Shown here: positions 1 through 63,464 of the stretch, one piece after another
Layout of the letters: every line of letters starts with the position of its first letter
Position numbering within the stretch: the stretch's first letter is position 1
NCBI GenBank assembly: GCA_022711335.1
Contig: JAKLFF010000003.1
Location: 13,508 to 77,507 of the forward strand
Direction: 5' to 3'
Source: Patescibacteria group bacterium
GTDB taxonomy: Bacteria; Patescibacteriota; Minisyncoccia; Moranbacterales; UBA2206
Length of the DNA stretch: 64,000 bases
Position numbers and translations under genes: made by a program
Notes under the pieces: model-generated
The model's input: the letters and a program-made list of their open reading frames with translations, nothing else
Databases searched by the model: none
Told to the model about the DNA's origin: nothing

Positions 1-65
1 AAAATCATACGATTCTTCGCGCTGCTTTTCCGATAACAATTTAGAGTCGCGGATTAATTCCAAAC

Positions 66-113
66 TCCCCTTCTCCCCTTGGGAGAAGGTGGCCGTAGGC
101 CGGATGAGGGAGG
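66..113. repeat. Family E structured repeat (stem1 CCTTCTC..GAGAAGG, hairpin2 GGCC-gta-GGCC, GAGGGAGG tail), intergenic copy
   Basis: Same three-part architecture as the in-frame copies at 4725-4815 and 11637-11692. Confidence 0.5.
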
Positions 114-146
114 AATCTTTATTAAGCTTTTCTAATTTACTTAGTT

Positions 147-203
147 TTTCCCCTCTCCTGCCCTTCGGGCATCCTCTCCCGAAGGGAGAGGAGGACTTTA
201 ACA
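147..203. repeat. Family E structured repeat, inverted orientation (CCTCTCCC-gaa-GGGAGAGG plus TGCCC-ttcg-GGGCA)
   Basis: Reverse complement gives stem1-hairpin2-GGAGAGGGG tail, matching the other copies. Confidence 0.5.
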
Positions 204-559
204 AAACAGCGCAGGCGACTACCGGCCCGGCTAATGGTCCTCTCCCTGCCTCGTCCACACCAACCACAAAATCATAGCCTTTTTGGGCATATTTTAGCTC
301 AAAATTGAATATTGACTGATTCTTCATAACATGGCAGAATAATATGGTGTTCTTTTTTTAATCCAAGTGAATCTTATCATGAAAGATTGATTCTTGGACA
401 GAAAACTCGAGTTAAAACAAAAAAGAAGCTCCGGACAAACCGGGTCTTTTTTGTTTTGGAAATAAAAAAGAACCCTGACAACATAGCTCGTCTGCTCCAA
501 AGAGTCAGTTAGCATTTTGCTGTCAGGGTCAAACCCGGCAAGTAGATTCAGTGCGGAAT

Positions 560-1042: not shown

Positions 1043-1317
1043 CTACTCCTCCTTTTTTTGTGTTCACTTCGGTCGTTCCCTTGCCGGAAACAGTTCCGGC
1101 ACCAATGTGTTGCTTCAATCATACAAAAAAAATAAACACCAGTCAATAAATAAGATTTCGTCAAACCCGATTTTATGCTAAACTATATCTATTGTAAAAA
1201 ATATCCTGCAAGCCCCATGGAGCAATCCGGGAAATGAGGATAAAAAATTATGGATATACTAATACTGCCTTACTAAATATTTTAAACTACTTCTTAGGGG
1301 TAGTTTTTATATTAAAT

Positions 1318-1424
1318 TTAAAAATCAAATCTCAAAATGCAAAATGACAATGTAAAATACAAAATTATTTTTCTTTTTTAATTTTGATTTGTCATTTTTA
1401 TTTTTGATATTTACATTTTGATTT
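1318..1424. repeat. Family G AT-rich palindromic element (AAATGACAATGTAAAATACAAAATT ... TGTCATTTTTATTTTTGATATTTACATTTT), ends at the dnaE ATG
   Basis: Near-identical copy at 16725-16830. Internal inverted repeat. Confidence 0.6.
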
Positions 1425-4400
1425 ATGAAATTCACACATCTTCACGTCCACAGTCACTACAGCCTTTTAGATGGTCTTGCCAAGATCGATGATCTTTTGA
1501 ACCGCGCCAAGGAACTGGGAATGGAGTCTCTCGCCATTACTGATCACGGGGTTCTTTACGGCGGAATTGAATTTTATATCAAAGCCAAAGAAAAAGGCAT
1601 TAAGCCGATCATCGGCTGCGAAATGTATGTTACTGCTGGAGATTATTTGAGCAAAAACAATACAACGGAAGACAAAACCCGCCATCACTTGATTCTGCTT
1701 TGTAAAAATGAAAAAGGTTACAAGAATTTAATGAAGCTTATTTCCATCGCACATTTGGAAGGATTCTATTACAAGCCAAGAATCAACAAAGAGCTTTTGC
1801 GTAAACATTCAGAAGGCCTGATTGGACTTTCTGCCTGTGCCGAAGGCGAAGTTCCCGCTGCTGCTATTTCCGGAGATCTCGAAAAAGCTGAAAAGCTAGC
1901 GCTGGAATATCAAAAAATTTTTGGCAAAGGCAATTTTTATCTCGAAATACAATATCATCCAAAATTCGAAAAACAAGCCATTGCCAACAAAGCTCTCGTT
2001 GAAATATCAAAAAAACATAATATTCCTCTCATTGCAACAAATGATATCCATTACGTCAAAAAGGAAGACGCGCCAATCCAGGATATTTTGCTTTGCATCC
2101 AGACCAACCGGAAAGTAACCGAAACAAACCGGATGAATCTCATGGATTTTGAACTCTATCTCAAGAGCCCGGAAGAAATGGCCGCTCATTTCAAAGATAT
2201 TCCCGAAGCGCTGGAAAATTCCCAAAAAATTGTCGACGCCTGCAATTTGGAAATAAGATTGGGCGAAACCCAGCTTCCCCATTTTGACGTTCCAAAGGGA
2301 TTTACCGCCAAATCCTATCTCCGAAAACTGGTTGAGGAAGGATTTGGAAAAAGATTTGGCAAAAATATAACAGAAGAACATAAAAACAGAATGGAATATG
2401 AGCTGGGAATCATCGAAAAAACCGGCTTTGCTTCCTACTTTTTGATCGTCCAGGACTTTGTCAACTGGGCCAAGGAACAAGGCATCGTTGTCGGCCCGGG
2501 CCGCGGATCAGCCGCTGGAAGTTTTGTTTCCTATCTTATCGGCATCACTAACATCGACCCGATAAAATACGACTTGCTTTTTGAACGTTTTTTAAATCCG
2601 GAGCGGATTTCTATGCCTGATGTCGACATGGATTTTGCCGATGACCGGCGCGATGAAGTTTTGGATTATGTCCGGGAAAAATATGGCAACGATCATGTGG
2701 CGCAGATCATTACCTTTGGAACTATGGCCGCGCGCGCCGCTATCCGCGATGCCGGCCGGGCGCTTGGGCTGCCCTACGACTTTTGCGACAAGACTGCTAA
2801 AATGATTCCTATGTTTTCCACTATTCCCAAAGCTATCGAAGAAGTAAAAGAATTTTCCGATTTTTATGGAAGCGGTCCGGATGCCAAAAAACTGATTGAC
2901 AGCGCGGCACGCCTTGAAGGCGTAGTCCGCCATGCGTCAATGCACGCCTGCGGAGTGGTCATTACAAAAGATCCAGTTGTTGAATATTCTCCTTTGCAAA
3001 AAATTATCGGAAAAGAATCCGGAGCGGTCACGCAATATTCATCTTCCACCAAATCCAGTTATATTGAAAAAATCGGCCTTCTTAAGATGGATTTTTTGGG
3101 GCTGAAAAATCTTACCATCATCCAAAATACTCTCCGCATTGTTCGAAAAATTCACCCTGTTGAATACGCCGCGAAGCGGCGTCCGCCAGAGGCGGAATTC
3201 AACAGGGTAAAAAATTCGGAAATTACCATAGATGATATCCCGCTAGACGACAAAAAAACTTTCGAGCTTTTGCAAAAAGCCAACACGACCGGAGTATTCC
3301 AGTTAGAAAGTTCCGGCATGAAAAGATATCTAAAACAGCTTGCGCCCAATGTTTTTGAAGATATTATTGCTATGGTCGCGCTTTATCGTCCGGGACCGAT
3401 GGATTGGATTCCGGATTTTATCGCCAGAAAGCATGGAGAAAGAGAAATTCGCTATCTCCACCCCGCCTTAAAACCTATTTTGGAAAAAACTTACGGCGTT
3501 GCGGTTTATCAGGAACAAATTATGCAAATCGCCCAGCAGCTGGCCGGATTCTCTTTGGGAGAAGCGGATGTGCTGCGAAAAGCGGTCGGAAAAAAAATCT
3601 TCGCGCTGGTTCAGGAACAAAAGCAAAAATTTATTGAAGGCTGCATCAGCCAAGGCGTAGCAAAGAATGTCGCCGAAAAAGTTTTTTCTTTTATTGAGCC
3701 TTTTGCCGGATACGGTTTTAACAGAAGCCATGCCGCGTGTTATGCGCTCATTGGATATCAAACCGCTTATCTCAAGGCTCATTTCCCTGCTCCATTTATG
3801 GCCGCGCTTCTCACATCCGATCAGGATAATATCGATCGAGTGGCCATTGAAGTCGCCGAGTGCATTGAAATGGGTATTGAGGTTCTTCCTCCTGATGTCA
3901 ATGAAAGTTTTGAGGAATTTGCCGTTATTATGGATAACGGCAAAGCCAGAATCCGCTTCGGCTTAAACGCCATCAAAAACGTCGGCCACACGATCGCCCA
4001 TGAAATTGTTGAAGAGCGAAAAAGAAATGGAAAATTCAAAAACATTACGGACTTCATTGAAAGAATCCAGCACAAAGATCTCAACAAAAAATCCATCGAA
4101 GCCCTGGCCAAAGTCGGAGCGCTCGAAGAAATGGGAGAAAGAAACCAAATCATAGCATCGATTGAAATTATTCTCGCTCACTCCAAAAATATCCAGAAAA
4201 TCAAAAATTCCAACCAGGAAAGCCTTTTCAGCGCTGAAGAAATTTCTCTTCCGGAAATCAAGATGGCTTCTTCAGAACCGGCTGAAAAAAAACAGCGCCT
4301 CGCTTGGGAAAAAGAGCTTCTCGGCCTTTATATCAGCGACCATCCGGTCAAAGAATACATCGAGTATCTCAATAAAATGGCTATCCGGATCAGAGATATA

Positions 4401-5045
4401 AATTCAGCGTATGTAGGAAGAAATATCAATGTCGGTGGCGTAATTTCCAAGGTCCAGAAAATTTTTCTCAAAAATCAAAAAACGATGCTATTTGTCACAA
4501 TCGAAGATATTGATTCGCGGATGGAACTCCTGGTTTTTCCAAAAGTCCTGGAAAATAACGGATCGGTCTTTGAAGAAGAGAAAGTGATTCTCGCAACCGG
4601 AAAAGTATCTGATAAAGACGGAAGTTTCAAAATTCTCCTCGACAGCGCCAAAGTCATAACCCCGCAGGAACTGGAAAAATTCAAAAGAATTTTAGCCACG
4701 CAGAAAAATAATACTTCTCATAATCCTCCTCTCCCCTCGGGAGAGGACTCGCCTCGATTCGACGAGACATCTTATCGAGTCGAAGCGGGTGTCCGAAGGA
4801 CAGGAGAGGGAGAAACTAAAAATAATCAGAATTCTAAATTAATCATTACCCTCCCGCCGAATTTTTCCAAAGAAATCCTGAAAAAACTTTCCGCGCATTT
4901 TGACAAGTGCCAGCTGGGATCAATGAAAGTTTATCTCAAAATCGGCACAACTACCTTGGAAACGCCTTATTGCATCAAAGAAATCGATGGCATAGAGCAA
5001 GATCTCAAAAACATTGTACCAGATGGAAAAATTGAGATAAGTTAG
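1425..5045 (+). CDS. dnaE: DNA polymerase III alpha subunit (PHP domain N-terminus), carrying two in-frame repeat insertions
   Basis: 1206 aa. Begins with a PHP motif (HLHVHSHYSLLDG) and has polymerase core motifs throughout. Confidence 0.95.
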   Translation: MKFTHLHVHSHYSLLDGLAKIDDLLNRAKELGMESLAITDHGVLYGGIEFYIKAKEKGIKPIIGCEMYVTAGDYLSKNNTTEDKTRHHLILLCKNEKGYKNLMKLISIAHLEGFYYKPRINKELLRKHSEGLIGLSACAEGEVPAAAISGDLEKAEKLALEYQKIFGKGNFYLEIQYHPKFEKQAIANKALVEISKKHNIPLIATNDIHYVKKEDAPIQDILLCIQTNRKVTETNRMNLMDFELYLKSPEEMAAHFKDIPEALENSQKIVDACNLEIRLGETQLPHFDVPKGFTAKSYLRKLVEEGFGKRFGKNITEEHKNRMEYELGIIEKTGFASYFLIVQDFVNWAKEQGIVVGPGRGSAAGSFVSYLIGITNIDPIKYDLLFERFLNPERISMPDVDMDFADDRRDEVLDYVREKYGNDHVAQIITFGTMAARAAIRDAGRALGLPYDFCDKTAKMIPMFSTIPKAIEEVKEFSDFYGSGPDAKKLIDSAARLEGVVRHASMHACGVVITKDPVVEYSPLQKIIGKESGAVTQYSSSTKSSYIEKIGLLKMDFLGLKNLTIIQNTLRIVRKIHPVEYAAKRRPPEAEFNRVKNSEITIDDIPLDDKKTFELLQKANTTGVFQLESSGMKRYLKQLAPNVFEDIIAMVALYRPGPMDWIPDFIARKHGEREIRYLHPALKPILEKTYGVAVYQEQIMQIAQQLAGFSLGEADVLRKAVGKKIFALVQEQKQKFIEGCISQGVAKNVAEKVFSFIEPFAGYGFNRSHAACYALIGYQTAYLKAHFPAPFMAALLTSDQDNIDRVAIEVAECIEMGIEVLPPDVNESFEEFAVIMDNGKARIRFGLNAIKNVGHTIAHEIVEERKRNGKFKNITDFIERIQHKDLNKKSIEALAKVGALEEMGERNQIIASIEIILAHSKNIQKIKNSNQESLFSAEEISLPEIKMASSEPAEKKQRLAWEKELLGLYISDHPVKEYIEYLNKMAIRIRDINSAYVGRNINVGGVISKVQKIFLKNQKTMLFVTIEDIDSRMELLVFPKVLENNGSVFEEEKVILATGKVSDKDGSFKILLDSAKVITPQELEKFKRILATQKNNTSHNPPLPSGEDSPRFDETSYRVEAGVRRTGEGETKNNQNSKLIITLPPNFSKEILKKLSAHFDKCQLGSMKVYLKIGTTTLETPYCIKEIDGIEQDLKNIVPDGKIEIS
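3152..3212. repeat. Family F structured repeat inserted in-frame in dnaE (outer stem ACCCTGTTGAAT/ATTCAACAGGGT enclosing hairpins CGCCGCgaaGCGGCG and TCCGCCagagGCGGA)
   Basis: ~62-nt near-identical copy in miaA at 11878-11940. Both encode ..KRRPPEAEFN.VKN.. Confidence 0.75.
4725..4815. repeat. Family E structured repeat inserted in-frame in dnaE (encodes [33 protein letters not shown])
   Basis: CCTCTCCC-ctcg-GGGAGAGG stem, an imperfect internal hairpin, and a GGAGAGGGAGAA tail identical to the miaA copy. Confidence 0.7.
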
Positions 5046-5062
5046 AAATTAATTTCACCGAA

Positions 5063-5100
5063 AAAGCCGGCTATCTCGACGATACCCGGCTCTATTTTTT
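5063..5100. terminator. bidirectional intrinsic terminator between dnaE and the convergent gene
   Basis: Imperfect GC hairpin GCCGGCTATC..GATACCCGGC followed by a T-run, with an A-run on the other side. Confidence 0.5.
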
Positions 5101-5116
5101 AGCAAATTTTGATTCT

Positions 5117-6064
5117 TTACAAAACACCTTCTTTCCCATCCACGGTAATTTCAATATTTTTAACCGTCGGAAATTGCTTTAGCGTCTGGGTTATCTGCGC
5201 TTTGATTATTTCTTTTTCGCAAGAACCTCCTGCCCCATCAACTAGCTCATGGCTGAAATCAACTCTGGCAATTCCTCCCGCGATTGTGATTTTGTTCGCT
5301 TTCGCGTCCCGGCTTATCTGGGAAAAATATCCGTCGTCTTCTTCAGTTGCATAAGTTCCCCGGATCAATTCCAAAAGAGATTCTTTGGCCACGCCGGAAA
5401 CTTTCGGAATCCTTCTCGAAGCCTCATAAACTTCTCCGCAATTTTGGGCATCCGGATCTTCCTTTCTGTTTCCAAAAAACACTTTGACATTCGTTGATTC
5501 CACTTTTTTGAATATGACAGGAATTTCTACTTCGTTTATTTCTGATCCGTCTTTAGCGCTATATTCAAAAACCTCTATTTTCCCCTCTTTTCCTTTCGGC
5601 TCTAAATAATTAAATGATGCTTCAAATGGCCCGAATTCTCCGATATCGGCACCCTCCACTGTTATATAGTTTTCAAGAAGTATCCTGTCATCAGAATCCT
5701 TAATTCTGTAGTTAAATGTGTTTTCAAATACTCTCGCTTTGCCTTTTATCGTTATCGGCAAGCCAACCGCCTCGTTGGCTTTCGGAAAATCAACGATAAT
5801 ATTTTTTTCTTCAGCATTATTTCCTGTTTCTGCTTTCTTTTCCTGATTATCCGCTTCAGTTTTTTGGGCTTGATTTGCCGCTTTTTTCGCTATTTCACCA
5901 CATCCGGTAGTTGGTGCCGGCGCGCTAGGATTTCCATGCTTCACCCATTGGCCATTCTGACAAATCCAATCGTCCTCCCCGCTAAAAAATCTCATTCCCA
6001 ATATAACAAAAAATATTATAATTAAAACTGAAACGACAAGTATAACTGCTTTTTTATTGGACAT
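5117..6064 (-). CDS. membrane-anchored protein, possibly Gmad2 Ig-like plus GerMN-like domains
   Basis: N-terminal TM helix. Domain call comes from sequence pattern only. Confidence 0.45.
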   Translation of the reverse strand: MSNKKAVILVVSVLIIIFFVILGMRFFSGEDDWICQNGQWVKHGNPSAPAPTTGCGEIAKKAANQAQKTEADNQEKKAETGNNAEEKNIIVDFPKANEAVGLPITIKGKARVFENTFNYRIKDSDDRILLENYITVEGADIGEFGPFEASFNYLEPKGKEGKIEVFEYSAKDGSEINEVEIPVIFKKVESTNVKVFFGNRKEDPDAQNCGEVYEASRRIPKVSGVAKESLLELIRGTYATEEDDGYFSQISRDAKANKITIAGGIARVDFSHELVDGAGGSCEKEIIKAQITQTLKQFPTVKNIEITVDGKEGVL

Positions 6065-7383: not shown

Positions 7384-7527
7384 GAAAAACTGAATGCCGC
7401 GCTGACGCGGATTCACCAACCGCTGAGCAGCTGCTAAAAGTTAGCAAAATAACTTAAGAAAGTGTCCGCCGATAAGGCGGAAACTTGGGTGGAACCGCGG
7501 GATTTTATCCGCCGATGAGGCGAAAAT
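7384..7527 (+). promoter_or_regulatory. probable T-box riboswitch leader (T-box motif AACTTGGGTGGAACCGCGGG at ~7484-7503; candidate specifier ACC in TTCACCAACC)
   Basis: Close match to the T-box consensus AAnnnGGGTGGnACCGCG. A promoter lies upstream and a terminator follows directly, with thrS downstream. Confidence 0.5.
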
Positions 7528-9764: not shown

Positions 9765-10964
9765 ATGAAGTATTATATCAAGACATTTGGATGTCAGATG
9801 AATTTTAGCGACAGCGAACGAATCGCTGGGTTTTTAGGATTGCACAAATTTAAGCCAGTCAAAGATATAAACCTGGCTAATTTAGTAATATTTAACACTT
9901 GCGGCGTGCGGCAGACAGCCGAAGATCGGGTTTATGGGCAAATACATAACATTAGGAAGCAAGAAGAAAGAAGTAAGAATAAAGCAAAAAGGGTAATAGT
10001 TTTAACTGGATGTTTGGCAAATCGAAAAGATGTGAAAAGAAGATTAAAAAATAAAGTTGATTTATTCTTTCCAATTAATGATTTTAATAAATTCGAACAT
10101 TTTATCATTAAAAATTGTTTAAAAATTAAAAATTTAAAATTAAAAATTCCGGCAAGGCAAAGTAAATGCAAAAATCTAAGTTATTTATCAATTAAACCCA
10201 AATATCTAAATCCTAAGGAAACCTACGTGCCGGTTATGACCGGCTGCAACAATTTCTGCTCCTATTGCGTCGTTCCCTATGCTCGAGGACGGGAAATCTC
10301 AAGACCGATGGAAGATATTGTGAAAGAAATCAATGCTTTGAATAAAAAAGGGTGCGGAGAAATAACTTTATTGGGACAGAATGTAAATAGTTATAAATAT
10401 AAAAATACGCCTCGCCTGTCATCCCCGCGAAAGCGGGGATCCAGTGAGAAAATTAAATCAAACGACTGGATTCCCGTTTACACGGGAATGACAAATATTA
10501 CTTTTCCCTATCTTCTTGACTTTTTTGCTCATTCTTATCCTCAAATAAATTTTAAGTTCTTAACTTCTCACCCGAAAGACTTTTCTGATGAATTAATCAA
10601 TACTATCGCCAAAAACAAAAACATTTCCCGAGAAATTCATCTCCCGGTTCAATCCGGCAGCGATAAGATTTTAAAAGCTATGAACCGGCCATACACGCAA
10701 AAAAAATATCTGGCGCTAATTGGAAAGATTAGGAAGAAAATTCCGAACGCGACTTTTACCACTGACGCAATTGTCGGTTTTCCAGGCGAAACAGAAAAAG
10801 ATTTTCAAGAGACCGCTAAAATTTTCAAGAAAATAAAATGCAGCGAAGCCTATATAAACAAATATTCTCCCCGTCCGGGAACAACCGCCTGGAAACTGGG
10901 AAATCCTATTTCTTGGGAAGAAAAAAAGAGAAGAGAAAAAGTTTTAAGAGCATTAGTTAAATAG
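9765..10964 (+). CDS. miaB: tRNA-i6A37 methylthiotransferase (radical SAM MTTase), with two in-frame Family D hairpin repeats
   Basis: N-terminal YIKTFGCQMN and radical SAM CNNFCSYC motifs. Lies directly upstream of miaA. Confidence 0.85.
   Translation: MKYYIKTFGCQMNFSDSERIAGFLGLHKFKPVKDINLANLVIFNTCGVRQTAEDRVYGQIHNIRKQEERSKNKAKRVIVLTGCLANRKDVKRRLKNKVDLFFPINDFNKFEHFIIKNCLKIKNLKLKIPARQSKCKNLSYLSIKPKYLNPKETYVPVMTGCNNFCSYCVVPYARGREISRPMEDIVKEINALNKKGCGEITLLGQNVNSYKYKNTPRLSSPRKRGSSEKIKSNDWIPVYTGMTNITFPYLLDFFAHSYPQINFKFLTSHPKDFSDELINTIAKNKNISREIHLPVQSGSDKILKAMNRPYTQKKYLALIGKIRKKIPNATFTTDAIVGFPGETEKDFQETAKIFKKIKCSEAYINKYSPRPGTTAWKLGNPISWEEKKRREKVLRALVK
10417..10445. repeat. Family D 29-nt hairpin repeat (TGTCATCCCCGCgaaaGCGGGGATCCAGT), in-frame in miaB
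   Basis: Exact reverse complement of the intergenic copy at 11026-11054. Confidence 0.75.
10465..10493. repeat. Family D hairpin repeat variant (ACTGGATTCCCGtttacaCGGGAATGACA), in-frame in miaB
   Basis: Same flanks (ACTGGAT..ATGACA) and same hairpin geometry. Confidence 0.65.
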
Positions 10965-11062: not shown

Positions 11063-12085
11063 ATGCGAAGTAAAAATCCTAGAATTATCGTCATTCTCGG
11101 CCCTACTTCATCCGGAAAATCGGAAATAGCCATTCGGCTTGCCAAAAAATTCGACGGAGAAATCATTTCGGCTGATTCCCGGCAAATTTATCGCGGAATG
11201 GACGTAGGCACCGGCAAAGTGCCAAAATCAAAAATCAAAAATCAAAAATCAAAATTACAATTTAAAAATAAAAAGTTCAATCCATATTGGAGCAACGGCG
11301 TTGCTCATTATCTAATCGATATTGTAAGTCCCAAAACAAATTATAATGCGGCTAAATTTAAAAAAGATGCTTATGGAGCTCTTAAATTTATAATTAATCG
11401 TGGAAAAATTCCGATTATCTGCGGCGGAACCGGGTTCTGGATAAAATCCATCGTAGATAATGTAGCTTATCCGGAAGTAAAGCCGGATTGGAAATTACGC
11501 AATAAATTGCGAAATAATTCAGCGGAAAAATTATTTAAGATGCTTGAAAAATTAGATCCAAAGAGAGTTACGAATATCGATAAAAATAATAAAGTCCGCT
11601 TGATTCGCGCAATTGAAATATGCAAAAAACTCAAACATGTTCCCTCTCTCCCCCCGGGAGAGATGTCGCGAAGCGACAGAGAGGGAGAAAACCATAATTT
11701 TCTCCAAATAGGCATTAAACTTCCCAAAGAAAAACTTCATAAAAATATAAAAAAGCGCCTAAAAAAAAGATTCGAGGCGGGAATGATTAAGGAAATTAAG
11801 GATTTAAAAAAACAAGGATTGTCCTGGAAGAAAATCCAGAGCTTCGGCCTGGGATATTTCTGGATTCCGCTATATCTTCACCCTATTAAATACGCCGTGA
11901 AACGGCGTCCGCCAAAGGCGGAATTCAACATGGTAAAAAACAAGAAAGAATTATTTGATAAAATATACCAAGCAGAAAAAGATTATGCCAAACGACAGAT
12001 GACCTGGTTTGGAAAAGACAAGCGAATAAAATGGATCGAAAAATACAAGGATATTGAGAAAGAAGCTATGTCTTTTCTAAAATAA
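11063..12085 (+). CDS. miaA: tRNA dimethylallyltransferase, carrying in-frame repeat insertions
   Basis: P-loop GPTSSGKS and MiaA motifs. 340 aa. Confidence 0.9.
   Translation: MRSKNPRIIVILGPTSSGKSEIAIRLAKKFDGEIISADSRQIYRGMDVGTGKVPKSKIKNQKSKLQFKNKKFNPYWSNGVAHYLIDIVSPKTNYNAAKFKKDAYGALKFIINRGKIPIICGGTGFWIKSIVDNVAYPEVKPDWKLRNKLRNNSAEKLFKMLEKLDPKRVTNIDKNNKVRLIRAIEICKKLKHVPSLPPGEMSRSDREGENHNFLQIGIKLPKEKLHKNIKKRLKKRFEAGMIKEIKDLKKQGLSWKKIQSFGLGYFWIPLYLHPIKYAVKRRPPKAEFNMVKNKKELFDKIYQAEKDYAKRQMTWFGKDKRIKWIEKYKDIEKEAMSFLK
11637..11692. repeat. Family E structured repeat in-frame in miaA (CTCTCCCCccggGAGAG, TGTCGCgaaGCGACA, GAGAGGGAGAA)
   Basis: Same architecture and tail as the dnaE copy. Confidence 0.7.
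11878..11940. repeat. Family F structured repeat in-frame in miaA
   Basis: Near-identical to dnaE 3152-3212, with compensatory loop changes in the hairpins. Confidence 0.75.
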
Positions 12086-13924: not shown

Positions 13925-15166
13925 TTATTGCAGACCTGTTTCTATCCATTCAGTGCAGTCTCTTGATCCTGGGCAGCTATAGCTTCCGCAGTTATCAGGA
14001 AAAAATGAACCTTTACAAGTGGATTCCCTTAAAATTTTTACTGGATCTGTATCTAATTCGCAATAACTGGGATCATGCGTACAGCCGACATTAATCCTAG
14101 TCCAGATATCCTTACCATCATAACTAACATTAATCTGTTCTGTTCCGCTATTTGTTCCCTTGTAGTTTCCCTTGCCAGGCTGAGGGCTAACGGCATCGTT
14201 AGGATTATCAGTTTCGTTCCAAATCGCACTATTGGTAAAATCCCCACTGTTGTCATTGCAAAGTGAAGAAGTATTATAGCAAGCTTTAAGGCTGATAGGA
14301 TCATCCAATGCAATCGATTTAACGATTCCAGTAATATTTTCACCACTTGAACAGCTATTTACACAAATTTTCAAAGTTTTTGCTTTTTCTATTGTCACAT
14401 TGCTAAAATCAAACCAACCAAGACCATTGGCAATATTAGTGAAGACCGCCGGATCATCGTCATTTTCACCGTTCCATGCACAGCTGATCCCCCCAGAACA
14501 AGGTATTATTTTTTCAGGATTGGAAGAACTGTCTATTTGAATGCCGTAAGGCGCACCATTTTTTGCCGTTCCATTCATCTTTATCCAGCCTCTCCAACCG
14601 CCAGAATTTCCGCTAACTGATTCTTGGGCAACACCAACGATTCTAGCCCAGCCAATAAGATTATTTCCACTTCTAGAAACTCCTCCCGTTCCCCCGCTAG
14701 GCGGTGTGCAGGAGGCAGCGCAATATTTTTTCAAATCTGCTGGAACACAAACTCCTGATGTTGGATTTGAATCTCCAGCAGAATTATCTTCAATACAATT
14801 ATTCCCGAAATCAATCCAGCCCAAATTTTCACTCCAAGCATATCCGCTAAGCGCTCCAGATGGCGGAATATCGACCCCATAATCAGCCATTGCAGTTCCA
14901 ACAGCCGGACAATATGAATTTGCCGCCGCACCATTTGATTTTCCATCTCCATCCGTATCGCAATTGACGCTGTTCACTACAATTGCGCCTGCACCAGTAT
15001 CATTTCCGTCCTTCACTCCATTTGACAATCCCAGCTCTGAATCCTCGCTTCCGCCCCAAATAAACCCGCGGGAGCTTTGCCCTTCGCCGGCTCTTACCTT
15101 CAGTGCTGTTCCCAGCGCAAAGAAAATTAAAAATACTATTGCTGAAAGAATTATTTTTTTTCTCAT
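13925..15166 (-). CDS. secreted Cys-rich protein with GW[IF]DF repeats
   Basis: 413 aa, signal peptide, ~20 Cys. Confidence 0.5.
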   Translation of the reverse strand: MRKKIILSAIVFLIFFALGTALKVRAGEGQSSRGFIWGGSEDSELGLSNGVKDGNDTGAGAIVVNSVNCDTDGDGKSNGAAANSYCPAVGTAMADYGVDIPPSGALSGYAWSENLGWIDFGNNCIEDNSAGDSNPTSGVCVPADLKKYCAASCTPPSGGTGGVSRSGNNLIGWARIVGVAQESVSGNSGGWRGWIKMNGTAKNGAPYGIQIDSSSNPEKIIPCSGGISCAWNGENDDDPAVFTNIANGLGWFDFSNVTIEKAKTLKICVNSCSSGENITGIVKSIALDDPISLKACYNTSSLCNDNSGDFTNSAIWNETDNPNDAVSPQPGKGNYKGTNSGTEQINVSYDGKDIWTRINVGCTHDPSYCELDTDPVKILRESTCKGSFFPDNCGSYSCPGSRDCTEWIETGLQ

Positions 15167-15253: not shown

Positions 15254-16720
15254 TTATTTTAGCTTGTTCTTTAGCATTTCCTGCGCTTTTTTAGGATTAG
15301 CTTTGCCTTTCGTTTTGGCCATAACCTGTCCAACCAAAAACTTCAGCGCGTTTTTTTTGCCGGCTTTATAATCAGCAACTGATTTTTCATTATTCGCGAT
15401 TACCTCTCCAACTATTTTTTCCAACTCGCCTTCATCGTCCATTTGAGCCAGATTTTTAGATTCGATTATCTGGGACGGATCTCCTCCGGTTTTGTACATT
15501 TCAGCAAGGACGGTCTGCGCCGCACTGGAATTTATTTTTCCACTGCCAACAAGACATATGAGTTCCGCATAATTTTCCGGCGTGATTTTCAAATCAGCCG
15601 CTGAATGGCTATGCTCGATCAAGTGTTTTCTGATTTCCACTATCATATAATTAGCCGCTAGTTTCATGGCCTTGTTTTCATCTAATTCAAACTCGCCACA
15701 ACTTATTTTTTCCTTAAGTTCGCCAATCACTTCTTCGAAATAAGCCGCCAAGTGCTTGTCAGAAACTAGAATCGCTACGTCATCTACTGGCAAATTATAT
15801 TCCTTTTGAAATCTTTCTGCTTTTCGATCCGGAAGTTCCGGCAATTTGCGTTTTAGCTCTTCGACATATTCTTTTGTAAACTTGAACGGCGGAATGTCCG
15901 GCTCCGGGAAATAGCGATAGTCATGAGCCGATTCCTTCACTCTTTGCGAAACAGTAGTTCCATGATTTGAATCATATCCTCTCGTTTCCTGAACCACTTT
16001 CTTTCCGGCTTCCAAAAGCTCTGTCTGCCGTTCAATTTCATAAGCAATCGCTTTTTCTACAAATTTGAAAGAATTGATGTTTTTCACTTCCACTTTCGTC
16101 CCGGATAATTTATCTTCGCCCTTTTTATAGAGTGACAGATTAACCTCACATCTCATCATTCCTTTTTCCATATCCGCATCGGAGATTTCCAGATACCGGC
16201 AAATTTGCTGAAGCTTCTGGCAAAACAATCTGGCTTCTTCAGCTGATTCAATATCCGGTTCAGTCACCAGCTCCATAAGCGGCACTCCAGCCCGATTGAA
16301 ATCCACGAGCGTATAATCCACGCCTTTGGGATGAATGAGTTTCCCGGTGTCCTCCTCCAGATGGATTCTTGTGATTCCCACCTCTTTTCCGTTTATTTTC
16401 AGTTTCCCGTTTTTGCAAAAAGGCTGATCATATTGGGAAATTTGATAGCCTTTGGGAAGATCGGGATAAAAATAATTTTTCCGGTCAAATTTGCTCTCGA
16501 GCGCAATTTCACAGTTCATGGCCAGTCCAGCCAGCTGGACAAATTCAATCGCTTGCCTGTTGGGCACTGGCAAAGTTCCAGGCTGGCCCGTACAAACCGG
16601 GCAAATATTGACGTTCGGCTCCCGTTCCAGCCCCAGCCCATTTTTCGAATCACAAAACATCTTAGAGGCTGTTTTTAGCTCTACATGCACCTCCATGCCA
16701 ATGACTGGGATATACTTCAT
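15254..16720 (-). CDS. gatB: Asp/Glu-tRNA amidotransferase subunit B
   Basis: 488 aa with GatB motifs throughout. Confidence 0.95.
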   Translation of the reverse strand: MKYIPVIGMEVHVELKTASKMFCDSKNGLGLEREPNVNICPVCTGQPGTLPVPNRQAIEFVQLAGLAMNCEIALESKFDRKNYFYPDLPKGYQISQYDQPFCKNGKLKINGKEVGITRIHLEEDTGKLIHPKGVDYTLVDFNRAGVPLMELVTEPDIESAEEARLFCQKLQQICRYLEISDADMEKGMMRCEVNLSLYKKGEDKLSGTKVEVKNINSFKFVEKAIAYEIERQTELLEAGKKVVQETRGYDSNHGTTVSQRVKESAHDYRYFPEPDIPPFKFTKEYVEELKRKLPELPDRKAERFQKEYNLPVDDVAILVSDKHLAAYFEEVIGELKEKISCGEFELDENKAMKLAANYMIVEIRKHLIEHSHSAADLKITPENYAELICLVGSGKINSSAAQTVLAEMYKTGGDPSQIIESKNLAQMDDEGELEKIVGEVIANNEKSVADYKAGKKNALKFLVGQVMAKTKGKANPKKAQEMLKNKLK

Positions 16721-16724
16721 AAAA

Positions 16725-16830
16725 ATAAAAAATCAAAAATTAAAATGAGAAATGACAATGTAAAATACAAAATTATTAATTATTTTAAATTTTTATCTGT
16801 CATTTTTATTTTTGATATTTACATTTTTCA
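16725..16830. repeat. Family G AT-rich palindromic element, abutting the gatB ATG
   Basis: Near-identical to 1318-1424. Confidence 0.6.
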
Positions 16831-17160: not shown

Positions 17161-17845
17161 TTTTTACTTTTTTCCAAATTAAATTATTAATCTCATTAAT
17201 GCTCATTAGTTTTCCCTTGTCCACACAATCAATCCTGTGCCAATTATTATATTTTTTTACCAGCATGACAGCGCTACTTTGGGAATCATTCAGATGTTTA
17301 GAGTTGCTTTCAGCCAAGTCTCCTTTTCCTTCCATATATTTTTTTCTTTTCGAAGCCGTCTTTTTTTTGAGCAACTTAAGAGTTATTTCCACTGGAACAT
17401 GCAAATAAACGATAAGATCAGGTCTGGGAATATTGAATGTTTTAAATTCCATTTTTTCCAACCATTTCAGAAATTCAGTTCTTTTTTTACTGTTACGAAT
17501 TTTCGCTCCCTGGTGGATTTGGTTGGAACTGGCGTATCGATCAGCAATCACGATATTTCCTTCTCCCAGCCATTTTTTAATTATTTTGCTTGACTCCCAC
17601 CTGTCCGCCGCGTAAAGCACAGAGGCGATATGCGGATCAACCGAAATAAAATCTCCATATTTTTCCGCCAGACATTCTCCGATCAACTTTCCGAAAAAAT
17701 TATCATAATAGCGTGGAAAGTCAATTGTTTTTACTCCGTACCCATCTTTTTTTAGTTTCTTAACTAATAGTTTGGTTTGGGTCGCCTTTCCGCTCCCGTC
17801 CGTACCATCTATGACAATAAATTTTCCTTTTTTTCCTGATTTCAT
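17150..17845 (-). CDS. tmk: thymidylate kinase-like
   Basis: P-loop IDGTDGSGKAT. Confidence 0.75.
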   Translation of the reverse strand: MKSGKKGKFIVIDGTDGSGKATQTKLLVKKLKKDGYGVKTIDFPRYYDNFFGKLIGECLAEKYGDFISVDPHIASVLYAADRWESSKIIKKWLGEGNIVIADRYASSNQIHQGAKIRNSKKRTEFLKWLEKMEFKTFNIPRPDLIVYLHVPVEITLKLLKKKTASKRKKYMEGKGDLAESNSKHLNDSQSSAVMLVKKYNNWHRIDCVDKGKLMSINEINNLIWKKVKNEL

Positions 17846-22526: not shown

Positions 22527-22674
22527 GATTATAGAATATTGAATTTAGTATTTTGAATTTTGAATGGAAATAATGAATATAGAATCGCGATTTCTCTCTT
22601 TTTAATCGACTATATTCAAAATTCTATATTCCTATTCTAAATTCGCAATTCACAATTCTAAATTCAGTAATAAA
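22527..22674. repeat. Family B palindromic AT-rich element (GAATTT/AAATTC units)
   Basis: A 55-nt segment is near-identical to 26945-26998. Confidence 0.55.
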
Positions 22675-25150: not shown

Positions 25151-25298
25151 ATAAAAAATTTTACTTATTTATTCAATTAGCGCTATTTAATTTCTAATTT
25201 TTAATTTTATAATTTTTAATATCTAAACTTACAATGTTTAAAAATTATAAATTTAAGCATTATTTACAAAATTAAAAATTCAAAAATTAAAAATTATT

Positions 25299-40589: not shown

Positions 40590-40710
40590 TCATGAAACAT
40601 GGAACATAAAGCATATAACATAAAACATAGAACATATAACATGAAACAATTATTTTAAGGGAAACTCCGTCTTGTTGCTATATGCTATATGTTTTATGTT
40701 CTATGATTTA
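40590..40710. repeat. Family A palindromic element
   Basis: Shares the central spacer with A2. Confidence 0.65.
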
Positions 40711-41117
40711 TCCAACCACGATTGCAGAATTATTCTGGCCGCTTCCTGATCATCCTGGTTCTTCACATGCTTCACTCCCCGTTCAATAAGATTATCCTGA
40801 GCCATTTTAGTCGTAAACATTTCGTTTTGATATTCTATATCAATATCAACCAGTTTTTTAATTAGTTTTCCCAAATGCTCTCCTTCGTATTCAACGTTTT
40901 CTTTGTTGATATAAGCCGGAAAACCAATTATAATTTTGTTAATACTGTTTTCTTGAATTATTTTAACCAGTTTTTGTAAAAAATCCTTATCATTGTCAAT
41001 TGTAGTATAGGCAAAAGCGATTTTGGTTTCGGAGTCTGCCATAGCCAAGCCAACCTTGGATCTCCCAAAATCTATGCCCAGATAGTGGCTTGTTTTAGGA
41101 TCGTTTGACTCTGTCAT
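40701..41117 (-). CDS. ruvX: Holliday junction resolvase-like RuvX/YqgF
   Basis: HYLGIDFG N-terminus. Confidence 0.85.
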   Translation of the reverse strand: MTESNDPKTSHYLGIDFGRSKVGLAMADSETKIAFAYTTIDNDKDFLQKLVKIIQENSINKIIIGFPAYINKENVEYEGEHLGKLIKKLVDIDIEYQNEMFTTKMAQDNLIERGVKHVKNQDDQEAARIILQSWLDKS

Positions 41118-62358: not shown

Positions 62359-63363
62359 TTAGTATTTGGTGTCCCTATTAAATACTACGCCTCTCACTGC
62401 TCCCGGATCTTGCCCAAGCGTTCCAATATCCTTGCCATTAAATTTAACATAGGTGGCGTTAGCTCGTCCAGAATTTATAACGATTTTATCCCCGGCACGG
62501 AAGCTCTGAACCGCTCCTGACAGCATTGTTCCTGAAAAAACCAGATTTTCATCGGCCTCAACCGAAAGCCAAACTGGACCTGGGTCAACTTTTATCTCAA
62601 TTTGAATTTCGTTCAATTCAGCCAAAACTGACTCCTCTTTTGATCCATCCTGGCCGCCTTGCGCCGTATCTTCCTTAAAGTTAGACCGGATTGACAGAGA
62701 GCTTAGCGTTTCTTTTCCGAACTTATTTATCGCTTTCATATTCAGAGCATTGATCCCGGATTGCAGAGTGATATTTTCGGAGAATTTTCCATCATCTCCA
62801 ACCAAAATCGGCTGATCGTTCACAAAAACTCGAACATCTTTATCAGTAACCCCCTCTACGCGCAAGCTATTTCCATCCACCGAAGTGTCCGGCTGTGGAT
62901 TGAGGATAATAAGCCGCGGAGCATCGGTAAACGACCCAATTTCCTTGTATAAATAAAATAATCCGGAAAATATCAAAATTGCGATTAACGACATAGCTAT
63001 TTTTTGGGGAGTAAAAACAAAGGAAGAAATGTTAATCGGTTTTTGAACAGATTTTTCAGCTTGCGGATTTTTGCTTTCTTCGAGATTTTTTTTAATCCCC
63101 TTCTCCTTCTCGTACAGCTTTATAAGCACATTCCCGTCTACTCCTAAAAAATCCGCATAGCTTCGAAGAAATCCTCTCACATAAACATCAGCTGGAAGCT
63201 TATCCCATCTGCCTTCTTCGAGATATTCAAGATAAGCAATTTGAATTTTTGTAATTCTGGAAACTTCGTTGAGAGCCATCCTTTTTCCATTTCTAAGCTG
63301 CCTCAGCTTTTCCCCCAGTGTTAGCGTTCCAACTCTCTTTTTTGTAAAACTGTTTCTAAGCAT
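62359..63363 (-). CDS. rodZ: RodZ-like (HTH plus TM plus C-terminal DUF4115-like)
   Basis: HTH LGEKLRQLR...YVRGFLRSYA. Confidence 0.7.
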   Translation of the reverse strand: MLRNSFTKKRVGTLTLGEKLRQLRNGKRMALNEVSRITKIQIAYLEYLEEGRWDKLPADVYVRGFLRSYADFLGVDGNVLIKLYEKEKGIKKNLEESKNPQAEKSVQKPINISSFVFTPQKIAMSLIAILIFSGLFYLYKEIGSFTDAPRLIILNPQPDTSVDGNSLRVEGVTDKDVRVFVNDQPILVGDDGKFSENITLQSGINALNMKAINKFGKETLSSLSIRSNFKEDTAQGGQDGSKEESVLAELNEIQIEIKVDPGPVWLSVEADENLVFSGTMLSGAVQSFRAGDKIVINSGRANATYVKFNGKDIGTLGQDPGAVRGVVFNRDTKY

Positions 63364-63464
63364 AAAACATGAAGCATATAACATGAAACATATAACAAGG
63401 TACACCAGCATAAATGTTTCACTCTATGCTAAATGTTATATGTTATATGTTTCATGTTTTATGT
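63364..63464. repeat. Family A element
   Basis: Fills the ftsK-rodZ gap. Confidence 0.6.

What the first reader, a model, noticed from the sequence alone, without database searches (positions are those of the whole stretch)
4725..4815. Family E: CCTCTCCC..GGGAGAGG stem / inner hairpin / GGAGAGGGAGAA-tail element, in-frame in dnaE and miaA and in intergenic DNA
There are four or five copies: 66-113 and 147-203 (inverted), 4725-4815 (dnaE, encoding [33 protein letters not shown]) and 11637-11692 (miaA). All share one architecture. Stem1 is CYCTCCC-NNNN-GGGAGRG. A second hairpin follows, variable in sequence and length. The GAGAGGGAGAA tail can pair back to the 5' CTCCCTCTC. The inner hairpin varies while the flanks are conserved, as in modular BIME/RPE-type elements. 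Inside genes the copies keep the frame. With Families F and D this makes three unrelated hairpin families living inside essential genes (dnaE, miaA, miaB).
Basis: seen in the sequence. Interest (0 to 1): 0.8.

Follow-up and report, generated by a model that had tools for sequence, protein, structure and literature searches.

The report
Triplex-motif hairpin repeats inside essential genes
A small repeated DNA element, built so that one strand can fold into a three-stranded helix capped by a hairpin, sits in-frame inside essential genes (rnhB, dnaE, miaA) of a Candidatus Moranbacteria genome; it is a hairpin-bearing relative of the enigmatic BoxC/"intrastrand triplex" repeats of E. coli, and similar units occur in many bacterial phyla and phage contigs.

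Summary
The four copies are real and non-random: 4 sites against 0.04-0.11 expected. Two details in the finding are wrong. The first loop is 3 nt, not 4. The two "intergenic" copies lie in-frame in RNase HII (rnhB), as one inverted pair.

The conserved 3' tail is not mainly a complement of the 5' arm. It is the mirror image of the purine arm of stem 1. That gives pyrimidine block, 3-nt loop, purine block, variable hairpin, mirror purine block, which is the signature of a class II purine-motif intrastrand DNA triplex (BoxC/PIT/TMECO type). Here the second loop is enlarged into a hairpin.

Core variants change all three blocks together. Elsewhere, a C:G inversion in the stem is matched by T in the third block (30 of 30).

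In the same genome, an 89-nt copy in pth is 100% identical to the dnaE copy. Composite pairs recur at unrelated loci with sharp ends. Orthologues without inserts exist. Single units lack stop codons in all six frames.

Best reading: a REP/BIME-like, non-autonomous DNA repeat that is translated as loop peptides. How it moves is unknown. It is a new variant of a known kind.

The parts
66..198 (.). Composite element (module A, AT-rich spacer, inverted module B, arranged tail-to-tail), in-frame in rnhB. It encodes [44 protein letters not shown].
   Evidence: The same composite, with sharp ends TCCCCTTCTCCC...GGGAGAGGAGGA and unrelated flanks, is found intergenically in L197:1658-1770. It is open in only 2 of 6 frames, and rnhB uses one of them. 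The same composite is in-frame at a different rnhB site in P0131 and P0156.
66..115 (+). Module A (subtype E3). Pyrimidine block 69-77 CCTTCTCCC; loop 78-80; purine block 81-89 GGGAGAAGG; hairpin 91-101 GGCC-GTA-GGCC; mirror block 102-110 GGATGAGGG.
   Evidence: All 9 triplets are canonical (G*G:C, A*A:T, T*A:T). The DNA fold leaves the tail unpaired. The same subtype occurs in L130 and L197 with other hairpins.
147..198 (-). Module B (subtype E1). Pyrimidine block 192-184 TCCTCTCCC; loop 183-181; purine block 180-172 GGGAGAGGA; hairpin 171-160 TGCCC-GAA-GGGCA; mirror block 159-151 AGGAGAGGG.
   Evidence: No stop codon in any of the six frames.
4724..4812 (+). Module C (E1 with a nested insert) in dnaE, aa 1101-1130 [30 protein letters not shown]. 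Pyrimidine block 4727-4735; loop 4736-4738; purine block 4739-4747; nested hairpin 4748-4789; own hairpin 4790-4802 TGTCC-GAA-GGACA; mirror block 4802-4810.
   Evidence: It is 100% identical over these 89 nt to a copy in the pth gene of the same genome, with unrelated flanks (L252). dnaE orthologues without an insert, or with other E variants at this site, are.
4748..4789 (+). A 42-nt hairpin of a different family (CTCGCCTCGA...GAAGCGGG) nested in loop 2 of module C.
   Evidence: Seen by comparison with canonical E1 units B and L082. A similar 45-nt hairpin is a presence/absence polymorphism in thrS between ~99% identical strains.
11640..11689 (+). Module D (subtype E2) in miaA, aa 194-210 PSLPPGEMSRSDREGEN. 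Pyrimidine block 11645-11652 TCTCTCCC; loop 11653-11655; purine block 11656-11663 GGGAGAGA; hairpin 11664-11678 TGTCGC-GAA-GCGACA; mirror block 11678-11685 AGAGAGGG.
   Evidence: Open in all six frames. Present in orthologues P0003/L130 and P0006, and absent from P0014, P0060, P0074 and others. It lies in a lower-confidence loop of the AlphaFold model.
1..327 (-). 5' part of rnhB (RNase HII), host of modules A and B. The gene runs off the left end of the window.
   Evidence: Frame -3 translation. The full 269-aa gene is in L129 with a PF01351 hit. The source names it ribonuclease HII.
1425..5045 (+). dnaE (DNA polymerase III alpha), host of module C.
   Evidence: PHP, DNA_pol3_alpha, HHH_6 and OB domains.
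11063..12085 (+). miaA (tRNA dimethylallyltransferase), host of module D.

Best explanation
Family E is a small (~47-50 nt), non-autonomous, REP/BIME-like DNA repeat of a Candidatus Moranbacteria (CPR/Patescibacteria) genome.

Each unit has five parts: an 8-9 nt pyrimidine block, a 3-nt loop, the complementary purine block, a short hairpin of variable sequence, and a third G/A(T) block. The third block is the mirror image of the purine block. This is the sequence signature of a class II purine-motif intrastrand DNA triplex, as in BoxC/PIT/TMECO repeats, except that the second loop is expanded into a stacked hairpin.

Units occur singly or as tail-to-tail inverted pairs with a spacer, which makes them MITE/BIME-like composites.

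Shown:
- Copies are dispersed with sharp ends at unrelated loci, in genes and between genes.
- Two copies in the same genome are 100% identical.
- Orthologues without the inserts exist.
- The three blocks co-vary by triplet rules.
- Single units are stop-free in all six frames.
- The genic copies keep the frame and lie at variable sites. The miaA copy is modelled as a loop.

Inferred:
- When the DNA is single-stranded, during replication, transcription or repair, the unit folds into a hairpin plus third strand plus capping hairpin. This fold, rather than the primary sequence of the inner hairpin, is what the process that copies, converts or maintains the units recognises.
- Copies arise by an unknown trans-acting activity or by recombination/gene conversion.
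- In genes, only insertions that keep the frame in permissive loops survive selection. These are then translated as Pro/Gly/Ser/Glu/Arg-rich loop peptides and decay slowly under protein-level constraint.
For: Non-random occurrence:
- 4 sites against 0.11 expected.
- The triplex finder gives 4 loci against 0.04 expected.

Triplet rule:
- The three subtypes each keep a perfect mirror third block: E1 GGGAGAGGA/AGGAGAGGG, E2 GGGAGAGA/AGAGAGGG, E3 GGGAGAAGG/GGATGAGGG.
- In 78 distinct hairpin-loop units from the genome scan, the free position next to the fixed core is C:G*G in 38, G:C*T in 30, T:A*A in 3, A:T*G in 3 and other in 4.
- Among 146 hairpins with unrelated cores, 51 have the mirror block downstream, 9 have a direct copy, 2 have the mirror block upstream, and permuted controls give about 5. 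Examples are AGGGGAGG/GGAGGGGT and AGGAGGGG/GGGGTGGT.

Inner hairpin: its sequence varies but its pairing is kept.

Dispersal:
- The pth copy is 100% identical over 89 nt to the dnaE copy.
- The rnhB composite recurs intergenically and at another rnhB site in other lineages.
- Two ~135-bp composites with a conserved spacer lie in L252.
- In about 93 kb of this genome there are 12 modules, 6 of them in genes (rnhB x2, dnaE, miaA, pth, ileS).

Insert status: orthologues lack inserts at all three sites.

Tolerance and translation:
- No stops in six frames.
- The loop position in the model has pLDDT about 64 against about 90 in the flanks.
- The miaA copy differs from its L130 orthologue by 3 synonymous changes and 1 non-synonymous change, while stem 1 decays.

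Exclusions and precedent:
- No Rfam family matches.
- The related BoxC/TMECO oligonucleotides form stable triplexes in vitro (PMC4666352).
Against: - Triplex folding of E itself is not shown. The GGAGAGG core is its own mirror image, so in E1 and E2 the tail can also pair with the 5' arm by Watson-Crick pairing. The minimum-energy folds of copies C and D do use such a three-way junction.
- Holder et al. did not detect protection of the BoxC triplex in vivo (PMC4666352).
- The co-variation counts are not phylogenetically independent. The C:G*G and G:C*T types are two widespread subfamilies.
- No transposase, target-site duplication or empty site for an E copy between close strains was found. 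All four window copies are fixed in every strain seen.
- The 89-nt and 47-nt shared lengths are not multiples of 3, so the exact insertion boundaries are unresolved.
- Different E variants at the same orthologous site could mean gene conversion rather than transposition.
Confidence: 0.6

Rival explanations
1. E is an ordinary MITE/REP. It is a Watson-Crick-only structure (two hairpins, or a three-way junction closed by tail/5'-arm pairing), mobilised by a conventional transposase encoded elsewhere. The mirror symmetry is a by-product of GA/CT-rich low-complexity arms and common descent.
For: - Minimum-energy folds of C and D close the tail on the 5' arm.
- Composites look like TIR-bounded MITEs with sharp ends.
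- Intragenic REPs, often as dimers and often in replication and repair genes, are documented (PMC3733652).
- The two main co-variation classes are subfamilies found together, so the independent events are few.
Against: - Copy A and other asymmetric cores keep a perfect mirror block but pair poorly by Watson-Crick rules.
- The third-block base next to the core follows the purine arm (G->G, A->A, C->T). It does not follow the fixed C it would face in a shifted duplex.
- Among non-canonical cores the mirror block is about 10-fold enriched downstream, against permuted, direct and upstream controls.
- No GTAG or CGTC tag sits at the ends, no target-site duplication was seen, and no transposase domain was found in about 93 kb.
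Confidence: 0.22
2. E is a functional RNA element (a cis-regulatory structure, processing site or ribozyme-like three-way junction) embedded in mRNAs.
For: - RNA folds are more stable than shuffles, with z from -1.6 to -4.4.
- The dnaE, miaA and pth copies are in sense orientation.
Against: - The rnhB pair and the ileS and priA (L082) copies are read in antisense or in both orientations.
- Intergenic composites are inverted pairs.
- No Rfam match was found, even at E<=10.
- The mirror co-variation has no Watson-Crick RNA explanation, and purine-motif triplexes are reported not to form in RNA (PMC4666352).
- The L130 miaA copy has lost stem pairing through synonymous changes while keeping the peptide.
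Confidence: 0.07
3. The inserts are removed before the protein functions, by an intron-like, bypassing or intein-like route, so the essential proteins are not really interrupted.
For: None directly. The only hint is that the elements are strongly structured and sit in essential genes.
Against: - At 47-133 nt they are far below any known self-splicing intron.
- All genic copies keep the frame and lack stops. That would be unnecessary if they were removed.
- Peptide-level conservation with synonymous change.
- Loop location in the model.
Confidence: 0.03
4. Low-complexity coincidence, or convergent selection for a PLPxGE...GEGE peptide.
For: The sequence is GA/CT-rich, and the dnaE and miaA copies share a reading frame.
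Against: - 100% identity over 89 nt between the dnaE and pth copies.
- The same DNA unit is read in different frames and orientations in rnhB, ileS and priA.
- Intergenic copies exist.
- Shuffle expectations are 0.04-0.11.
Confidence: 0.01

Closest known systems
BoxC / PIT elements / TMECO intrastrand-triplex repeats (Bachellier et al.; Hoyne et al. 2000; Holder et al. 2015, PMC4666352)
   Same: - Same block order: pyrimidine block, short loop, complementary purine block, then a third G-rich block that mirrors the purine block with A->T allowed (class II purine motif).
- Nearly the same core (CCCTCTCCC/GGGAGAGGG).
- Dispersed copies, often as inverted pairs made of two different subtypes.
- No associated transposase.
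- Function unknown.
   Different: - In E the second loop is 12-21 nt (56 nt with the nested insert) and forms a conserved hairpin of variable sequence, instead of N3.
- The published TMECO pattern has 0 matches in the window, although 65 of the other fetched loci match it.
- TMECO is described as always intergenic in E. coli K-12 and as found in proteobacterial genomes. E sits in-frame in essential genes of a CPR bacterium. Hairpin-loop relatives occur in Oscillospiraceae, Caulobacter, Planctomycetota, Bacteroidota and phage contigs.
Rickettsia palindromic elements (RPE; Ogata et al. 2000, as cited in PMC3733652)
   Same: Palindromic repeats inserted in-frame in functional, often essential, protein genes. 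They are translated as extra loop peptides in a reduced genome.
   Different: - Different organism group.
- RPE-1 is described in PMC3733652 as a longer palindromic insertion.
- No triplex or mirror block is described for RPEs.
- I did not compare the sequences.
REP/BIME elements, including intragenic GTAG/CGTC REPs (Di Nocera et al. 2013, PMC3733652)
   Same: - Small GC-rich hairpin units, singly or as inverted dimers.
- Mosaic composites.
- Some lie inside genes, notably replication and repair genes, and encode 20-30 aa.
- Proposed to be non-autonomous mobile DNA.
   Different: - E has no GTAG or CGTC terminal tag.
- No RAYT-like gene was seen in the regions examined.
- The E unit has three sequence-linked blocks plus an inner hairpin, rather than one palindrome.
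MITEs (review PMC10969869)
   Same: The composite E pairs (about 115-135 bp here, about 200 bp in Clostridial phage contigs) have inverted terminal modules, sharp ends, AT-rich flanks and no coding capacity.
   Different: - No target-site duplication or parent IS was identified.
- Single modules are as common as pairs.
- The two terminal modules are systematically of different subtypes.

Membership tests
Class II purine-motif intrastrand triplex motif (general definition in PMC4666352 / Hoyne et al.) | 5' pyrimidine-rich block followed by a complementary purine-rich block (Watson-Crick hairpin) | tested here: met
   8-9 bp perfect stems with a 3-nt loop in all four copies.
Class II purine-motif intrastrand triplex motif (general definition in PMC4666352 / Hoyne et al.) | 3' third block antiparallel to the purine block, giving G*G:C and A(T)*A:T triplets (mirror repeat) | tested here: met
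   0 mismatches over 8-9 triplets in all four copies. Shuffles give 0.04. Subtype and non-canonical cores co-vary in the same way.
Class II purine-motif intrastrand triplex motif (general definition in PMC4666352 / Hoyne et al.) | Short connecting loops (1-6 nt in ITxF; 0-10 nt in Hoyne et al.) | tested here: not met
   Loop 2 is 12-14 nt in A, B and D and 56 nt in C, and it folds as a hairpin.
Class II purine-motif intrastrand triplex motif (general definition in PMC4666352 / Hoyne et al.) | Actual triplex formation by the single strand | not testable with these tools
   Needs CD, NMR, UV melting or chemical probing. The folding tools used here model Watson-Crick pairs only.
BoxC / TMECO | Pattern CCCTCNCCC-N3-6-GGGNGAGGG-N3-GGGNGAGGG | tested here: not met
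   0 matches in the window. The pattern does match 65 other fetched loci.
BoxC / TMECO | Intergenic location | tested here: not met
   All four window copies are inside ORFs. Elsewhere in the same genome 6 of 12 modules are intergenic.
REP (GTAG/CGTC super-families) | Conserved GTAG or CGTC tetranucleotide at one end of the palindrome | tested here: not met
   Unit ends are TCC(T/C)C...GGGAG(AA). The only GTAG is in the loop of the inner hairpin of copy A.
REP (GTAG/CGTC super-families) | RAYT (REP-associated tyrosine transposase) gene in the genome | tested here: inconclusive
   No transposase-type Pfam family appears among the called genes of about 93 kb. The rest of the genome was not examined.
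MITE | Terminal inverted repeats bounding a short non-coding element | tested here: met
   This holds for the composites only: window 66-198, L197:1658-1770, L252:10658-10791 and L252:12603-12735.
MITE | Target-site duplication and a related autonomous IS | tested here: inconclusive
   No direct repeat is evident at the flanks of the copies compared. No empty site for an E copy was available, and no IS was found.
Rickettsia palindromic elements | Sequence membership in RPE-1..8 consensus families | not tested
The resemblance is functional only (in-frame palindromic inserts).
Rfam RNA families | Covariance-model match | tested here: not met
   Only chance-level hits below gathering scores overlap the copies.

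The most novel reading that the evidence does not exclude
Hairpin-capped class II triplex motifs form a phylum-spanning class of structured single-stranded-DNA elements, found in CPR, Bacillota, Alphaproteobacteria, Planctomycetota, Bacteroidota and their phages. On this reading, their three-block co-variation is direct comparative-genomic evidence that intrastrand DNA triplexes form and are selected in vivo. The triplex fold would be the recognition feature for an undiscovered copying or gene-conversion mechanism that can colonise even essential genes.
Probability: 0.3. Interest if true: 0.85.

Novelty: new variant of a known kind. Interest (0 to 1): 0.62.

Why it matters
BoxC/PIT/TMECO repeats have been known since the 1990s, but their function, their mode of spread and any proof of triplex formation in cells are all still missing.

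The E-type units add three things:
- A natural "mutagenesis" series. Three subtypes plus many other cores have all three blocks changing together, including T opposite a C:G inversion. This is the kind of co-variation argument that established RNA structures, applied here to a DNA triplex.
- A much wider host range, including phage contigs and ultra-small CPR genomes.
- Residence inside dnaE, rnhB, ileS, miaA and pth. This gives convenient read-outs: tryptic peptides across the inserts, and polymerase or RNA-polymerase stalling inside essential genes.

It also shows that CPR housekeeping proteins are riddled with translated hairpin repeats of several families, some polymorphic between ~99% identical strains. 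That matters for annotation, for phylogenetic alignments and for protein-length comparisons in these lineages.

Tried and rejected
The loop is 3 nt.
- Rfam scans at gathering threshold and at E<=10 found no family for the copies or for relatives.
- I first read the tail as a Watson-Crick partner of the 5' arm. I demoted this because asymmetric cores and the flanking-position co-variation follow the mirror rule instead.
- I looked for strain-level presence/absence of E copies. All four are fixed in every strain recovered. Only other hairpin families are polymorphic.
- I tried to obtain DNA of the closest insert-free miaA (P0014) and of P0007. No DNA was available because the sample file is too large. 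Exact insertion boundaries and any target-site duplication therefore remain unresolved.
- The dnaE C-terminal protein search returned only fragmentary proteins. It still showed insert-free orthologues and revealed the pth copy.
- I looked for a transposase among the called genes of about 93 kb and found none.
- I considered a link to diversity-generating retroelements because of the many PF05635 genes near pth. Nothing connects them to E.
- Literature searches for the Clostridial unit sequence and for CPR intragenic repeats found nothing specific.
Full report
**1. Source and setting**

The window is 100% identical to JGI contig Ga0116241_10000466. Sources name its MiaA and RNase HII proteins as from "Candidatus Moranbacteria bacterium", so this is a CPR/Patescibacteria genome of about 40% G+C. 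Near-identical strains (~99%) occur in several metagenome assemblies.

**2. The observation**

- The stem-1 pattern with a 4-nt loop finds nothing.
- With a 3-nt loop, CTCTCCCNNNGGGAGAG (up to 2 mismatches) finds exactly the four sites. The shuffle expectation is 0.11, and no shuffle in 100 reaches 4.
- No further copy exists in the remaining 52 kb.
- The two "intergenic" copies are in fact in-frame in rnhB on the minus strand. The gene starts at window 327 and runs off the left end. The reading is ...[61 protein letters not shown]....
- The dnaE copy (aa 1101-1130) and the miaA copy (aa 194-210) are read in one frame (PPLPSGE.../PSLPPGE...). rnhB reads copy B in another frame and reads copy A in antisense.

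**3. Anatomy: the tail is a mirror repeat**

Each unit has five parts:
- a pyrimidine block (Y);
- a 3-nt loop;
- the complementary purine block (R);
- a small hairpin of variable sequence that starts 0-2 nt after R and ends 0-1 nt before the tail;
- a tail (RH) that is R read backwards.

The three subtypes in the window are:

| Subtype | Copies | Y | R | RH |
|---|---|---|---|---|
| E1 | B, C | TCCTCTCCC | GGGAGAGGA | AGGAGAGGG |
| E2 | D | TCTCTCCC | GGGAGAGA | AGAGAGGG |
| E3 | A | CCTTCTCCC | GGGAGAAGG | GGATGAGGG |

In E3, the stem pair that differs from E1 is accompanied by T in the tail. This gives a T*A:T triplet. All 8-9 positions of all four copies fit the purine-motif triplets G*G:C, A*A:T and T*A:T.

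A finder that knows only this rule returns exactly these four loci in 64 kb, with no mismatch. The settings were Y of 8 nt, loop 3-6, R as the reverse complement of Y, and RH as the mirror of R within 75 nt. Dinucleotide shuffles give 0.04.

With DNA parameters, copy A folds as two hairpins and leaves the tail free. Copies C and D can alternatively close the tail on the 5' arm. That is possible because the GGAGAGG core is its own mirror image.

The dnaE copy is a canonical E1 unit with 42 nt of a different hairpin family inserted between R and its own hairpin (4748-4789).

**4. Link to known elements**

A literature search on the core sequence led to Holder et al. 2015 (PMC4666352). They describe BoxC/PIT/"TMECO" repeats as follows:
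- The pattern is CCCTCNCCC-N3-6-GGGNGAGGG-N3-GGGNGAGGG, a class II purine-motif intrastrand triplex motif.
- The oligonucleotides form stable triplexes in vitro.
- In E. coli K-12 the repeats are always intergenic.
- They often occur as inverted pairs of two subtypes.
- They are not linked to transposons, and their function is unknown.
- In vivo DMS footprinting did not show protection.

Family E shares the block order, the core and the pairing habit. It fails the published pattern (0 matches in the window) because loop 2 is a 12-21 nt hairpin.

**5. Distribution and co-variation elsewhere**

The hits fall into two groups:
- BoxC-like units.
- Many hairpin-loop units with the E architecture. 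These occur in Oscillospiraceae/Faecalibacterium, Caulobacter, Planctomycetota, Pedobacter, Sphingomonas and CPR genomes: L082, L098 (Moraniibacteriota), L135, L155, L196, L197, L217 and others.

The position just outside the fixed core is free in the search pattern. In 78 distinct hairpin-loop units it reads (stem pair, third-block base) as follows:

| Stem pair and third base | Count |
|---|---|
| C:G with G | 38 |
| G:C with T | 30 |
| T:A with A | 3 |
| A:T with G | 3 |
| other | 4 |

The third base therefore tracks the purine-arm base (G->G, A->A, C->T). It does not track the base it would face in a shifted Watson-Crick duplex, which would always be C. From my own knowledge, T opposite a C:G inversion is the preferred triplet of the antiparallel motif. 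These counts are dominated by two subfamilies, so the number of independent events is small.

A test that does not depend on the search pattern used hairpins with cores lacking CTCTC in all fetched loci. Of 146 such hairpins:
- 51 have a perfect mirror block within 60 nt downstream;
- 9 have a direct copy;
- 2 have a mirror block upstream;
- permuted blocks give about 5.

Examples are CCTCCCCT/AGGGGAGG/GGAGGGGT and CCCCTCCT/AGGAGGGG/GGGGTGGT. Many have the same hairpin in loop 2. The inner hairpins differ in sequence between copies but keep their pairing.

Holder et al. state that purine-motif triplexes do not form in RNA. Together with the use of both orientations, this points to a DNA-level structure.

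**6. Evidence that E is a dispersed, copy-generating element**

*Same genome.* Contig NODE_234 comes from the assembly that also holds the window's contig. Its pth gene carries ...[31 protein letters not shown].... The DNA is 100% identical to the dnaE copy over 89 nt (window 4724-4812), nested hairpin included, and the flanks are unrelated.

That 20.6-kb locus holds seven modules. Six are intergenic. They include two ~135-bp composites, E2(+)-spacer-E1(-), with a conserved spacer.

ileS, just left of the window, holds a slightly decayed antisense E1 unit.

In all there are 12 modules in about 93 kb. Six are in genes: rnhB x2, dnaE, miaA, pth and ileS.

*The rnhB pair.* The pair is a discrete composite (window 66-198). 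It recurs intergenically in L197 with the same ends and unrelated flanks. In other lineages (P0131, P0156) it sits in-frame at a different rnhB site and is read in the same frame.

*Orthologues.*
- Insert-free orthologues exist for miaA (P0014, P0060, P0074, P0031, P0113, P0116), for rnhB (P0129, P0136, P0176, P0196, P0226, P0227) and for dnaE (P0243, P0244, P0248, P0253, P0256, P0257).
- The same sites carry other E variants, BoxC-like units or unrelated hairpin families in other lineages. These sites are hot spots or permissive loops.
- The miaA copy is old. It is shared with orthologues of 66-74% identity. Against L130 it shows 3 synonymous changes and 1 non-synonymous change inside the unit, while stem 1 decays.

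The contrast between old positions and identical copies suggests recent copying or gene conversion among units.

**7. Why the copies are tolerated in genes**

- Homopurine and homopyrimidine blocks cannot contain stop codons on either strand. Units B and D are open in all six frames, C in five, and the composite in two. rnhB uses one of those two.
- In an AlphaFold2 model of MiaA (mean pLDDT 80), the E peptide lies between helix 177-189 and strand 212-218. Its pLDDT is about 64, against about 90 on either side.
- Di Nocera et al. reported REPs inside genes, often as dimers encoding 20-30 aa and often in replication and repair genes (PMC3733652). The hosts here (dnaE, rnhB, and priA in L082) fit that pattern.
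- About half of the modules are intergenic in a gene-dense genome. This implies that most genic insertions are removed by selection.

**8. What is not known**

- No transposase-type domain occurs among the genes of the window and its neighbourhood.
- No target-site duplication is visible.
- No empty site for E between close strains was found.
- The shared lengths (47 and 89 nt) are not multiples of three, so the boundaries are uncertain by 1-2 nt.
- The mechanism of spread is therefore inferred, not shown. It could be structure-specific transposition, or recombination/gene conversion promoted by a polymerase-stalling structure.

**9. Verdict**

The finding is real and more interesting than a generic hairpin repeat, but it belongs to a known kind. 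It is a hairpin-loop variant of class II intrastrand-triplex repeats that behaves like REP/BIME or RPE elements, and here it is caught in-frame in essential CPR genes.

Noticed in passing
window 3165-3215 (dnaE) and 11891-11941 (miaA): A second in-frame hairpin family, TACGCCG(C/T)GAA(G/A)CGGCGTCCGCCA(G/A)AGGCGGAATTCAAC, encodes YA(A/V)KRRPP(E/K)AEFN(R/M)VKN in both genes. The miaA copy is absent from strain L128, so it is a presence/absence polymorphism. Similar peptides occur in several MiaA orthologues (P0002, P0005, P0008).
   Followed up: partly
window 10407-10493 (miaB): An in-frame insert encodes TPRLSSPRKRGSSEKIKSNDWIPVYTGMT. It consists of two hairpins, TCCCCGCGAAAGCGGGGA and a 'WIPxxxGMT'-type hairpin. 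Strain L128 has a different, shorter sequence here. WIPAFAGMT-type units also appear in rnhB of strains L126 and L128 and in orthologue P0130.
   Followed up: partly
window ~8224/8225 (thrS); L001:7118-7162: Strains L001, L003 and L126 (~99% identical) carry an extra in-frame 45-nt hairpin, CCCGCCTCGACTCGCGGAAACGACCGCTCGTCGACGCGAGGCGGG (PASTRGNDRSSTRGG), that the window lacks. It resembles the hairpin nested in the dnaE E copy. This is the clearest recent indel of a hairpin element in a gene.
   Followed up: partly
L129:8094-8903 versus L126/L128 rnhB (left of the window); ileS in L129:3006-6272: A second variable site in rnhB carries different inserts in ~99% identical strains: an AT-rich insert in one and a WIPAFAGMT-type insert in the others. 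ileS differs by 52 aa between strains in an editing-domain region. These may be allelic replacements rather than simple insertions.
   Followed up: no
window 1311-1424, 16719-16828, 22537-22669, 25186-25297, 40590-40711, 63357-63467: There are several families of long AT-rich intergenic inverted repeats, for example ...AATGACAATGTAAAATA... and ATAACATGAAACATATAACA-type arms. They recur between genes and are unrelated to Family E.
   Followed up: no
window 7393-7518 (+), upstream of thrS: A weak T-box-leader-like match (33.5 bits, E=1.9e-4, far below the gathering score of 93) lies just upstream of the threonyl-tRNA synthetase gene. It may be a divergent or reduced T-box.
   Followed up: no
L252:5104-5469, 14164-14607, 15841-16209, 17422-17790: Four PF05635 (23S rRNA-intervening-sequence protein family) genes lie within 20 kb of the same genome, next to giant surface proteins of more than 3000 aa (Laminin_G_3, Peptidase_S74). 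The gene number differs between strains.
   Followed up: no
L257:2585-2800, L315:872-1090, L292:264-482, L262:2147-2368 and 4959-5177 (viral contigs): There are ~200-bp composites in gut phage/prophage contigs. Each has a 'C-type' triplex-hairpin unit, a conserved central hairpin (…GATA…CTCTGACAAAGAG…TATCG…) and an inverted 'G-type' unit. One unit of each type is always present, echoing the type A + type B pairs of E. coli BoxC.
   Followed up: partly
window 91-110: The inner hairpin and tail of copy A read CGTAGGCCGGATGAGG. From memory, this is one base away from the reverse complement of the E. coli REP consensus (CGTAGGCCGGATAAGG). It is probably coincidence.
   Followed up: no
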